Virus genome (UHGV): UHGV-0305646
Origin: a virus
Strand: one strand, 5' to 3'
DNA: 9,024 nucleotides
Shown here: positions 1,069 through 1,491 of the stretch, piece after piece
Layout: the number at the start of each line of letters is the position of its first letter
How positions within the stretch are numbered: the stretch's first letter is position 1
The notes under the pieces: model-generated
Told to the model about the DNA's origin: nothing
The model's database searches: none
Seen by the model: only the letters and a program-made list of their open reading frames with translations
Position numbers and translations under genes: made by a program

Positions 1069-1491
1069 TCACCAATAATATGAATTCCTTCTGTGCCACC
1101 AATAAAGCAGACCGTATCCGACGATAAGAATCCCGAAGAACATCAGAGACATTCCCCAGCCAGTTCCATACCACGAAACCATATCATCGAAAACCAGCCC
1201 ACCCGTTTCACGAACTCCGGCAGCTTCCTTAAGAATTGGCTTGAATACCGGAATCAGAAGGGCGATCGCCAGTGGAGCACCCCAGCGAATAAGGCCAGTT
1301 TCCATTTTGATCCCGAAAAAGATCCCCGCACCGACAACAAGCAGCCAGACTATCAGGCCAGGCGCAGTTTCCAGTGCTGTTTGCCATTCAACATCGAAAG
1401 TTTTCATTAGCCAGGCAACAACTGCCAGACAGAAAGCAAATACGCCTACAACAACCAGTTCAACGCCGCTTGTTTCGTTATTTCTACTCAT
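1069..1491 (-). CDS. Hypothetical polytopic inner-membrane protein (about 4 TM helices, 141 aa)
   Basis: Track ORF 1069-1638 (189 aa) overlaps the 60-aa gene; the internal ATG at 1489-1491 (MSRNNETSGVELVVVGVFAFCLAVVAW...) has an AAAGGA SD upstream and removes the overlap. Four hydrophobic stretches of about 20 aa. The 1638 start remains possible. Confidence 0.5.
   Translation of the reverse strand: MSRNNETSGVELVVVGVFAFCLAVVAWLMKTFDVEWQTALETAPGLIVWLLVVGAGIFFGIKMETGLIRWGAPLAIALLIPVFKPILKEAAGVRETGGLVFDDMVSWYGTGWGMSLMFFGILIVGYGLLYWWHRRNSYYW

What the first reader, a model, noticed from the sequence alone, without database searches (positions are those of the whole stretch)
1069..1491. Polytopic membrane protein whose track ORF overlaps the regulator gene
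The supplied ORF (1069-1638) would overlap the 60-aa gene by 59 bp and read through the hairpin at 1535-1561. An internal ATG at 1491 with an SD gives a compact 141-aa protein with four hydrophobic segments and no overlap. A small 4-TM protein next to a membrane effector-like protein suggests a membrane complex or an immunity/effector pair.
Basis: inference. Interest (0 to 1): 0.55.

Follow-up and report, generated by a model that had tools for sequence, protein, structure and literature searches.

The report
Conserved four-helix membrane protein of filamentous prophages
This is a real 140-residue, four-helix inner-membrane protein of unknown function. It is carried by chromosome-integrated filamentous phages of E. 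coli and its relatives, and it sits as a fixed gene between a changeable repressor and a hypervariable, defence-like cargo slot, not as the partner of the gene next to it.

Summary
The longest ORF (1069-1638, minus strand) overlaps the upstream 60-aa gene by 59 bp and runs through a perfect 10-bp hairpin. The real gene starts at the ATG at 1491 and encodes 140 aa, not 141. Support for this start comes from an end-to-end PHROG 4174 match, RefSeq calls in every E. coli chromosomal locus inspected, homologues that all begin MSRNN, in-frame stops 5-23 codons upstream in most relatives, and dN/dS of 0.03-0.16.

The window is a UPΦ/CUS-1/Ypfφ-type filamentous prophage in tandem at the chromosomal dif site.

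The "pair with the 2-TM/zinc-ribbon neighbour" reading fails. The 4-TM gene is in 128 of 5426 complete E. coli genomes, and that neighbour is in one. The 4-TM gene plus a ~100-nt leader is a fixed module. It lies between interchangeable repressors (60-aa or Cro/CI HTH) and a hypervariable cargo slot holding AbiJ-like, REase-like and SLATT-like genes. It also occurs with unrelated virion modules.

Intact copies survive alone in phage relics beside dif. Distant homologues lie on an IncHI2 plasmid next to CBASS and in a conjugative-type locus.

There is no sequence or fold match to anything characterised. My best guess is an autonomous, prophage-expressed exclusion or conflict protein. That function is inferred, not shown.

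The parts
1069..1491 (-). CDS of the 140-aa four-helix inner-membrane protein (PHROG 4174, function unknown). ATG at 1491-1489, TGA stop at 1071-1069.
   Evidence: PHROG 4174 match over 1-140 of 140 positions, E 1.5e-85. PGAP calls the same 423 nt in related genomes. dN/dS is 0.03-0.16. AF2 model with pLDDT 84.5.
1500..1505 (-). Shine-Dalgarno-like AAAGGA, 8 nt upstream of the ATG.
   Evidence: Read. AAAGGAT[C/G]AAA is conserved upstream of the ATG in six of the seven loci aligned.
1534..1562 (-). Conserved leader hairpin (10-bp perfect stem, 9-nt loop) followed by CUUUAUUGUG. It belongs to the 4-TM module. It may be a leaky terminator or attenuator between the repressor gene and the 4-TM gene.
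   Evidence: The sequence is conserved in E. coli, Klebsiella and Phytobacter loci whichever repressor lies upstream, and is replaced by a different GC-rich hairpin in Rosenbergiella/Izhakiella. It did not meet the consensus terminator scan.
1564..1579 (-). Palindrome GTACCA-ttcg-TGGTAC immediately after the regulator's stop codon. It switches to GTCTCA-ggaa-TGAGAC in phages with the HTH repressor.
   Evidence: The changes keep the palindrome and track the regulator type.
1580..1762 (-). 60-aa gene (PHROG 2503, no Pfam hit). It is a putative phage regulator by position only: it occupies the slot held by a Cro/CI-type HTH repressor in CUS-1-type phages.
   Evidence: HTH_3 E 1.6e-9 for the 148-aa protein in the same slot in NU14. 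Found in 49 of 5426 E. coli genomes.
1810..1888 (.). Divergent control region between the regulator and gene II, with three direct TGAACTCA repeats (candidate operators or origin elements).
   Evidence: Four copies in the whole window against 0.42 expected.
421..1002 (-). Variable cargo gene 1: a 2-TM, SLATT-like protein with a C-terminal CxxC...CxxC zinc ribbon (TIGR04402, mobilome CxxCx(11)CxxC protein).
   Evidence: NCBIfam TIGR04402 E 1.1e-41; weak SLATT_1 and DUF4231 hits. Present in 1 of 5426 E. coli genomes.
218..451 (-). Variable cargo gene 2: a small ORF (63 aa as called by PGAP from 409; 77 aa from the TTG at 451) ending in CPACGK.
139..178 (-). Strong intrinsic-terminator-like hairpin followed by UUUUC. 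It is the likely end of the minus-strand unit regulator, 4-TM, cargo.
   Evidence: Fold of -38.7 kcal/mol, z = -5.2.
109..141 (+). Imperfect dif-like junction (GGTGCGCATAA TGTAGGACTCG TTATGTTGAAA) between two tandem prophage copies. Window 1-108 is the tail of the preceding copy.
   Evidence: Window 1-123 is identical to 8452-8574, and the sequences then diverge.
8560..8587 (+). Perfect chromosomal dif site (attR). The host flank follows, to 9024.
   Evidence: Exact 28-nt match, 0 expected by chance.

Best explanation
The gene at 1491-1069 (minus strand) encodes a 140-aa inner-membrane protein with four helices. Both ends are predicted to be cytoplasmic, and the two conserved acidic/aromatic loops are predicted to be periplasmic.

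It is a fixed component of the lysogeny-side operon of dif-integrating filamentous prophages (UPΦ and CUS-1 types). The inferred transcript starts in the control region that diverges from gene II. It passes the small regulator gene, two hairpins, the 4-TM gene and a hypervariable cargo slot, and ends at a strong terminator beside the attachment site.

The 4-TM gene and its ~100-nt leader form one conserved block. This block also serves as the homologous flank across which cargo is exchanged.

Shown: the gene's identity, its start, purifying selection, its position, its independence from the neighbour, and its spread on other mobile elements.

Inferred: its function. I think it most likely acts alone, from the prophage, in conflicts between mobile elements. 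The leading version is superinfection exclusion: it would block entry or establishment of incoming filamentous phages at the inner membrane, through something shared by phages with different attachment proteins (for example the Tol-dependent import step). A more general membrane-level defence role is also possible.
For: Gene and start.

Element: gene II (Phage_CRI and G2P_X_C), G5P, Zot and secretin; tandem copies; perfect dif at 8560-8587. This matches the UPΦ description in PMC7307601.

Fixed module: nucleotide identity begins about 100 nt before the ATG, is 88-100% through the gene with a decline toward its 3' end, and is random right after the stop.

Independence from other modules: the gene is 96-100% identical in phages with the 60-aa regulator or the Cro/CI HTH repressor. 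This also holds across unrelated coat, pIII, pVI and Zot modules and, in L042-L044, where gene II is not detectably related. The same regulator-then-4-TM order is kept at 37% identity (L046) and about 30% identity (Aeromonas tandem inovirus).

Autonomy and value to the host: the gene sits beside dif in elements that have lost the phage core. It is intact in Mixta (51% identity), Pantoea ananatis and Proteus vulgaris. In an enterobacterial contig (L023) a copy lacking its own ATG is fused to a dif-spanning ORF.

Conflict context: the cargo slot holds AbiJ_NTD4+DUF7014, REase_DpnII-MboI (matching the Argonaute-associated REase effector profile) and SLATT-like genes. A 36% homologue on an IncHI2 plasmid lies about 600 nt upstream of a CD-NTase/E1-E2/JAB/SAVED CBASS operon. 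A 25% homologue lies in a T4CP/VirB11-like/SLT/TopoIII locus.

Topology and conservation: the C-tail is net positive and loop 3-4 is net -1.6. The most conserved residues (P73, P85, A91, W107-Y108-G109, W112) cluster at the predicted periplasmic side.

Phenotype in a relative: a resident Ypfφ gives partial protection against superinfection, and the gene responsible has not been identified (PMC4266046).

Against: The protein does not co-vary with pIII, so a receptor- or adsorption-specific exclusion is unlikely.

Prophages carrying it still form arrays of 2-16 copies and sit next to other inoviruses (L048). Any exclusion would therefore be partial or type-restricted.

Expression in the lysogen is inferred from gene order only, and no sigma-70 consensus promoter was found.

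Frameshifted or truncated alleles exist in some genomes.

Proximity to defence genes could simply reflect its being the flank of a recombination hotspot.
Confidence: 0.4

Rival explanations
1. Phage-physiology role. The protein serves the phage itself: it tunes the lysogeny/production switch (for example by tethering or sensing at the membrane), supports replication or assembly sites, or protects the cell envelope from the stress of chronic virion extrusion.
For: It always sits directly behind the phage regulator and is divergent from gene II. It is under strong purifying selection. It is present in two inovirus lineages.
Against: It is independent of regulator type, gene II type and morphogenesis module. 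Intact copies persist in relics without any phage core. Homologues are found on a plasmid and in a conjugative-type locus with no inovirus genes. The classical Ff and IKe phages lack these reverse-oriented accessory genes (PMC7307601).
Confidence: 0.2
2. Shared membrane subunit for the cargo (λ RexB-like). The constant 4-TM protein is the common membrane effector or anchor, and the variable downstream genes are interchangeable sensors or partners.
For: In every inovirus locus where sequence continues past the gene, some cargo follows it on the same strand. Several cargo proteins have TM segments or are Abi-like. A REase_DpnII-MboI gene is adjacent to a 4-TM homologue in two arrangements: E. 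coli (4-TM then REase) and Proteus (REase then 4-TM, 9-nt gap, REases 57% identical). The architecture recalls cI-rexA-rexB (my own knowledge).
Against: The cargo types are unrelated to one another and include self-contained nuclease or Abi-type proteins. In Mixta the 4-TM gene stands alone, with no other same-strand gene next to it; in the Vibrio locus it is the only gene on its strand. Cargo in one inovirus lineage can differ while the 4-TM protein stays 96-100% identical.
Confidence: 0.12
3. Immunity protein against a membrane-damaging toxin (pore-forming bacteriocin or T6SS effector), carried as a lysogenic-conversion gene.
For: Its size and polytopic topology resemble pore-former immunity proteins (my own knowledge). 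An Hcp gene and small 2-TM genes lie within 3 kb in Mixta.
Against: In Mixta the dif site lies between the Hcp cluster and the 4-TM gene, so they belong to different units. No toxin gene is consistently linked. There is no homology to known immunity families.
Confidence: 0.07
4. One reading: a dedicated membrane complex or effector/immunity pair with the adjacent 2-TM/zinc-ribbon protein.
For: The two genes are adjacent on the same strand, and both products are membrane proteins.
Against: Co-occurrence is 1 of 128 E. coli genomes that carry the 4-TM gene, and 0 of 27 related loci.
Confidence: 0.02
5. The 189-aa ORF from the TTG at 1638 is the true product.
For: It is open in the window and in closely related loci. 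PHROG 6875 matches part of the extension, and one database entry (P0049) was called from this start.
Against: The extension is closed by stops in most relatives. It runs through two hairpins and overlaps the regulator gene. PHROG 4174 and all full-length homologues start at the ATG. P0049, the one protein retrieved that carries the extension, is an over-called ORF on a 970-nt contig.
Confidence: 0.02

Closest known systems
P22 SieA (and the HK97 gp15 type) superinfection-exclusion proteins
   Same: These are small, prophage-encoded, polytopic inner-membrane proteins that act alone from the lysogen to block genome entry. SieA is 162-164 aa with 3 predicted TM segments (PMC10883804).
   Different: No sequence or fold similarity was detected. 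SieA acts on tailed-phage ejection proteins. Here the host is a filamentous prophage, and the exclusion function is only inferred.
λ RexB in the cI-rexA-rexB operon
   Same: RexB is a ~140-aa four-TM inner-membrane protein encoded downstream of the repressor in the lysogenic transcript (my own knowledge).
   Different: There is no constant RexA-like partner, and the neighbours vary or are absent. No homology was detected in any library searched.
PfsE of Pseudomonas Pf filamentous phages
   Same: PfsE is an inner-membrane protein of a filamentous prophage that prevents superinfection (PMC8764522, title and abstract seen).
   Different: PfsE is a very short peptide that acts on type IV pili (my own knowledge). 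It is unrelated in size, sequence and gene position.
Phage-encoded hypervariable regions (pHVRs) of Vibrio CTX-type inoviruses
   Same: The slot downstream of the 4-TM gene behaves like a pHVR. It lies between conserved phage features near the attachment site, turns over by horizontal exchange, carries Abi, nuclease and TM-effector-like genes, and is retained in degraded relics (PMC12715192).
   Different: In Vibrio CTX-I phages the pHVR lies between zot and xafT. Here it lies between the 4-TM gene and attL on the repressor side. The passages of that paper I read do not mention a conserved 4-TM flank.
The three reverse-oriented ORFs of unknown function in UPΦ901, and the variable accessory regions of CUSΦ/Ypfφ
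   Same: This is the same kind of phage with the same layout. PMC7307601 reports three reverse-oriented ORFs just downstream of dif with no known function, and variable accessory regions in CUSΦ/Ypfφ.
   Different: That paper reports only genes II and V as shared between UPΦ901 and Ypfφ. Here the 4-TM gene is 96-99% identical in protein sequence between UPΦ-type and CUS-1-type E. coli prophages. I could not check whether Y. pestis Ypfφ itself carries it.
Conjugative entry-exclusion proteins (F TraS, SXT Eex)
   Same: These are small polytopic inner-membrane proteins of mobile elements that block entry of related elements (my own knowledge). One distant homologue lies in a conjugative-type locus.
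   Different: No homology was detected, and the Vibrio gene's role in that locus is unknown.

Membership tests
PHROG 4174 (uncharacterised prophage protein family) | Full-length match to the family profile | tested here: met
   Match over 1-140 of 140 positions, E 1.5e-85. All 28 members of alignment A3, down to 19% identity, hit this PHROG.
UPΦ-type dif-integrating inovirus (the element that carries the gene) | Core inovirus genes in Ff order, with an IKe/I2-2-like morphogenesis module | tested here: met
   Gene II, G5P, G7P, major coat, attachment protein, DUF5455, Zot and secretin are present in order. The only phage-collection DNA hits are IKe and PEar gene IV at about 80% identity.
UPΦ-type dif-integrating inovirus (the element that carries the gene) | Genes II and V of the Ypfφ/CUS type | tested here: met
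   Gene II is 86% and gene V 92-93% identical in protein sequence to CUS-1-type prophages of NU14 and M9.
UPΦ-type dif-integrating inovirus (the element that carries the gene) | Integration at chromosomal dif, often in tandem | tested here: met
   Perfect dif at 8560-8587, imperfect junction at 109-141, and the tail of a preceding copy at 1-108. Tandem copies in strain C10.
Superinfection-exclusion inner-membrane proteins (SieA/gp15-like, functional class) | Small prophage-encoded integral inner-membrane protein | tested here: met
   Four TM helices by hydropathy and by the AF2 model. The charge distribution fits a topology with both ends in the cytoplasm.
Superinfection-exclusion inner-membrane proteins (SieA/gp15-like, functional class) | Expressed from the repressed prophage | not testable with these tools
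   Only gene order supports this: same strand, 88 nt after the regulator gene, with a shared terminator at 139-178. No promoter consensus was found.
Superinfection-exclusion inner-membrane proteins (SieA/gp15-like, functional class) | Necessary and sufficient to block genome entry of related phages | not testable with these tools
   This needs infection assays. The only related evidence is the published partial superinfection protection by a resident Ypfφ (PMC4266046).
Superinfection-exclusion inner-membrane proteins (SieA/gp15-like, functional class) | Detectable homology to a characterised exclusion protein | tested here: not met
   No Pfam, NCBIfam, PADLOC or PDB sequence hit. No specific fold match.
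λ RexAB-like two-gene exclusion system | A constant sensor partner gene next to the 4-TM gene | tested here: not met
   The neighbours are at least ten unrelated gene sets, or absent.
   The 4-TM gene is in 128 genomes and the neighbour in 1. The neighbour is in 0 of 27 related loci.
Holins | Match to a holin family, and linkage to an endolysin | tested here: not met
   Only 2 of 28 family members touch Phage_holin_3_6, at E 0.33. There is no lysis gene in this non-lytic phage.
Inovirus hypervariable region (pHVR), for the slot downstream of the gene | A fixed position between conserved features, with unrelated, defence-like gene content that differs between close relatives | tested here: met
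   Identity drops to random immediately after the 4-TM stop and resumes at the attachment region. The contents include AbiJ-like, REase_DpnII-MboI plus DUF6953, and TIGR04402/SLATT-like genes.

The most novel reading that the evidence does not exclude
The 4-TM protein founds an unrecognised family of autonomous exclusion proteins carried by mobile elements. From the inner membrane it would block establishment of dif-integrating filamentous phages whatever their attachment protein, for example by interfering with the shared Tol-dependent import or membrane-insertion step. Under this reading bacteria keep it as a relic beside dif because it protects that landing site, and plasmids and conjugative elements have borrowed it.
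Probability: 0.25. Interest if true: 0.65.

Novelty: new member of a known kind. Interest (0 to 1): 0.38.

Why it matters
Filamentous prophages of the CUS-1, Ypfφ and UPΦ types are common in extra-intestinal pathogenic E. coli, Salmonella, Klebsiella and the plague bacillus lineage. Their reverse-oriented "accessory" genes have no assigned function.

This work separates those genes into two parts: one fixed membrane-protein module and a genuinely hypervariable, defence-like slot. That gives a concrete candidate for the unexplained partial superinfection immunity of these phages. It also identifies the conserved flank across which cargo is exchanged.

If the exclusion role is confirmed, it would add a new protein family to the short list of known inovirus exclusion mechanisms. 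It would also explain why intact copies persist beside dif after the phage has decayed.

If it is not confirmed, the practical result still stands: the annotation (140 aa, ATG at 1491) is correct, and the "pair" hypothesis can be dropped.

Tried and rejected
1. Family assignment. Pfam, NCBIfam and PADLOC gave no hit for the protein or for 28 family members. The only family is PHROG 4174, function unknown.

2. Solved structures. A profile search of PDB sequences gave only chance TM matches.

4. Known RNA elements. Rfam found nothing in the leader. The consensus terminator scan did not flag the 1534-1562 hairpin.

5. T6SS immunity idea from the Mixta locus. I rejected it because dif separates the Hcp cluster from the gene.

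6. Pairing with the 60-aa regulator. I rejected it because the same 4-TM allele follows a Cro/CI HTH repressor in CUS-1-type phages.

7. Co-variation with pIII, which a receptor-specific exclusion would predict. None was seen.

8. Viral-contig searches with two mid-distance homologues found nothing. An alignment that was too diverse could not be used for a locus search.

9. Literature. I found no functional data on this gene: searches on YPO2271-2273, on UTI89 filamentous prophage, and on Ypf superinfection. The Gonzalez 2002 CUS-1 paper is not held.

10. I could not establish whether Y. pestis Ypfφ carries the gene.

Full report
**What the window is**

The 9024-bp window is a filamentous (inovirus) prophage integrated at the chromosomal dif site.

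- On the plus strand it encodes gene II (Phage_CRI and G2P_X_C), a G5P-type ssDNA-binding protein, a major coat protein, an attachment protein with GGGES repeats, a pVI-like protein, Zot/pI and a secretin. Two small ORFs of unknown function follow.
- The best public match is a tandem prophage in E. coli strain C10, 99.4% identical over the first 3 kb.
- Window 1-123 is identical to 8452-8574, and the two copies then diverge. The left copy continues into an imperfect dif-like junction (109-141). The right copy continues into a perfect 28-nt dif (8560-8587) followed by host DNA.
- The window therefore holds the tail of one prophage copy, one complete ~8.45-kb copy, attR and the host flank.
- The combination of an IKe-like morphogenesis module, Ypfφ/CUS-type genes II and V and a dif site matches the published UPΦ group (PMC7307601).

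**The observation**

- The mechanical ORF 1069-1638 (minus strand, TTG start, 189 aa) exists and overlaps the 60-aa ORF 1580-1762 by 59 bp.
- The hairpin is real: 10-nt perfect arms at 1534-1543 and 1553-1562 with a 9-nt loop. A second palindrome lies at 1564-1579, right after the upstream gene's stop.
- The leader folds better than shuffled sequence, z = -3.6.
- The ATG at 1491 has AAAGGA 8 nt upstream.

**Which start is right**

Every line of evidence favours the ATG at 1491.

- PHROG 4174 aligns to residues 1-140 over its whole 140 positions, E 1.5e-85.
- PGAP annotates 423 nt in all the E. coli chromosomal loci inspected.
- Full-length homologues from E. coli, Salmonella, Klebsiella, Citrobacter, Phytobacter, Pantoea, Lonsdalea, Yersinia enterocolitica and Mixta are 136-140 aa. 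They begin MSRNN or a close variant.
- The 49-codon extension is closed by an in-frame stop 5-23 codons upstream of the ATG in 19 of 22 IMG/VR inovirus loci. It is also closed in E. coli 1368KP, Klebsiella, Rosenbergiella, Izhakiella, Phytobacter and Mixta.
- An open stretch of that length has a chance probability of about 4.5%.
- Pairwise dN/dS in the 423-nt frame is 0.03-0.16 across dS values of 0.1-0.96, so the gene is functional and under strong purifying selection.

**The protein**

- Hydropathy shows four hydrophobic segments.
- An AlphaFold2 model built on a diverse 28-sequence alignment is confident (pLDDT 84.5, pTM 0.71). It has helices at 7-32, 36-63, 67-90 (kinked at the prolines) and 111-137.
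- Across the family the C-terminal tail is net positive (+1.2) and the loop between helices 3 and 4 is net negative (-1.6). This fits both ends in the cytoplasm and loops 1-2 and 3-4 in the periplasm.
- The best-conserved residues (P73, P85, A91, W107-Y108-G109, W112, G125-Y126) concentrate at or near the predicted periplasmic side.
- No characterised relative was found by sequence or by fold.

**The neighbour is not a partner**

- The 4-TM gene occurs in 128 of 5426 complete E. coli genomes, usually in two or more tandem copies.
- The 821 bp that carry the 2-TM/zinc-ribbon gene and the small ORF occur in one genome, strain C10. They occur in none of 27 related phage loci.
- The neighbour is a TIGR04402 "mobilome CxxCx(11)CxxC" protein with weak SLATT similarity.
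- In other prophages the same slot holds other gene sets:
  - an ECs_2282-type zinc ribbon plus a 159-aa protein;
  - a 369-374-aa protein;
  - an AbiJ_NTD4+DUF7014 protein;
  - a REase_DpnII-MboI nuclease (matching the Argonaute-associated REase effector profile) plus DUF6953;
  - several further unrelated sets.
- This is the behaviour described for the hypervariable, defence-rich regions (pHVRs) of Vibrio inoviruses (PMC12715192).

**A fixed module between two variable ones**

- Ungapped comparison shows that homology between phages with different regulators begins about 100 nt upstream of the ATG, at the conserved hairpin.
- Identity is 88-100% through the gene, with a decline toward its 3' end, and becomes random immediately after the stop.
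- The same 4-TM protein (96-100% identical) follows either the 60-aa gene of the window or a 148-aa Cro/CI-type HTH repressor in CUS-1-type prophages of NU14, M9 and UTI89 (HTH_3, E 1.6e-9).
- It travels with the window's virion module, or with one that shares no detectable similarity in coat, pIII, pVI and Zot. In L042-L044 it travels with a gene II that is not detectably related.
- The first palindrome switches from GTACCA..TGGTAC to GTCTCA..TGAGAC with the regulator type, while the second hairpin stays constant.
- The decay of identity toward the cargo fits the gene acting as the homologous flank for cargo exchange. Fusion proteins that join its N-terminal half to cargo sequences (P0033, P0047) also fit this.

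**Wider distribution**

- The order regulator, then 4-TM, then cargo is kept at 37% identity in a different inovirus (L046). The order regulator then 4-TM is kept at about 30% identity in tandem Aeromonas inoviruses.
- Copies also survive beside dif where the phage core is gone.
  - In Mixta intestinalis the gene lies about 300-400 bp from dif, with no cargo.
  - In an enterobacterial contig (L023), dif runs straight into codon 2 of the gene, which has lost its own ATG, and cargo remnants follow.
  - In Pantoea ananatis a truncated repressor remnant lies upstream.
  - In Proteus vulgaris, a REase 57% identical to the E. coli cargo nuclease precedes the 4-TM gene by 9 nt.
- More distant homologues lie on an IncHI2 conjugative plasmid, about 600 nt upstream of a type II CBASS operon. 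Others lie in a Vibrio locus with a coupling protein, VirB11-like ATPases, a lytic transglycosylase and topoisomerase III, and next to IS elements.

**How it most likely works**

Shown:
- It is a selected, autonomous, polytopic inner-membrane protein.
- It is placed on the repressor side of the phage.
- It is independent of its neighbours and of the phage's other modules.
- It is repeatedly found among conflict genes and in relics.

Inferred:
- It is transcribed with the regulator in the lysogen, possibly throttled by the leader hairpins, to the strong terminator at 139-178.
- It acts in conflicts between mobile elements.

Superinfection exclusion is the leading version of that role, for four reasons.
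- Genes in this position in temperate phages commonly have that role.
- Small polytopic inner-membrane proteins such as P22 SieA act in this way (PMC10883804).
- A resident Ypfφ gives partial protection against superinfection, and the gene responsible has not been identified (PMC4266046).
- Retention of the gene beside dif, the inovirus landing site, would make sense for a protective gene.

Because the protein does not co-vary with pIII, any target should be common to these phages. The Tol-dependent import step is one possibility, and that is speculation.

I put this explanation at about 0.4 overall. The anatomy is close to certain and the function is not. The rivals are listed separately: a phage-physiology role, a shared subunit for the cargo, and toxin immunity.

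**Verdict**

- The gene is an uncharacterised but widespread inovirus accessory protein, which makes it a reasonable experimental target. It is not a surprising finding in itself.

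Noticed in passing
window 1-141 and 8452-8587: The window spans a tandem-prophage junction and the right end of the array. Positions 1-123 repeat 8452-8574 exactly. The left copy continues into an imperfect dif (GGTGCGCATAA-TGTAGGACTCG-TTATGTTGAAA) with an enlarged central region. The right copy continues into a perfect E. coli dif. This matches the imperfect dif between integrated copies described for Ypfφ.
   Followed up: yes
window 190-1010; loci L002-L010 and L024-L045: The slot between the 4-TM stop and the attachment site is hypervariable and defence-like: AbiJ_NTD4+DUF7014, REase_DpnII-MboI+DUF6953, TIGR04402/SLATT-like, zinc-ribbon pairs, and several ORFs with no family. 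It is an E. coli/Enterobacterales counterpart of the Vibrio inovirus pHVRs, but on the repressor side of the genome. The window's own cargo is found in only 1 of 5426 E. coli genomes.
   Followed up: partly
L051 8212-9384 (Proteus vulgaris); L005 and L022 (E. coli): A REase_DpnII-MboI nuclease is adjacent to a 4-TM family member in two different gene orders and at very different divergence: the REases are 57% identical, the 4-TM proteins about 30%. This could be shared descent from an inovirus cargo region or a functional link. I did not resolve it.
   Followed up: partly
L053 7992-8408 (IncHI2 plasmid p23141-mcr): A 36%-identical family member lies about 600 nt upstream of a complete type II CBASS operon (CD-NTase, E1/E2, JAB, SAVED effector). 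It is directly preceded by a 161-aa protein with no family match.
   Followed up: partly
window 1810-1888: Three exact TGAACTCA direct repeats (spacing 24 and 47 nt) lie in the divergent region between the regulator gene and gene II. The whole window has four copies against 0.42 expected. They are candidate operators or origin repeats. No sigma-70 consensus promoter was found here.
   Followed up: partly
window 1564-1579; L007 and L021: The palindrome right after the regulator's stop changes on both arms (GTACCA/TGGTAC to GTCTCA/TGAGAC) together with the regulator type. It may be a terminator stem or a regulator-specific binding site.
   Followed up: partly
window 4421-4543: A 15/30-nt tandem repeat (about 7 copies) encodes the GGGES linker of the attachment protein. 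The gene's length differs between strains, with annotated attachment genes of 1218 to 1317 nt. The UPΦ paper also notes g3p as the one protein that distinguishes otherwise near-identical isolates.
   Followed up: no
window 8288-8521: A 77-aa ORF (PHROG 5435) with two CxxC pairs lies directly next to attR and is conserved in all UPΦ-type copies. Its function is unknown. Its position resembles that of Xer-activating factors in other dif-integrating elements, but it has no DUF3653/XafT similarity.
   Followed up: no
searches compared with PMC7307601: The UPΦ paper reports only genes II and V as shared between UPΦ901 and Ypfφ. In E. coli, the 4-TM gene is also shared (96-99% protein identity) between UPΦ-type and CUS-1-type prophages. 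I could not check whether Y. pestis Ypfφ carries it. If it does not, that would show the gene is dispensable for virion production.
   Followed up: partly
proteins P0032, P0036, P0045-P0048, P0033, P0047: Some genomes carry frameshifted or truncated 4-TM alleles, or fusions of its N-terminal half to cargo sequences. This shows occasional decay and recombination break-points inside the gene.
   Followed up: no
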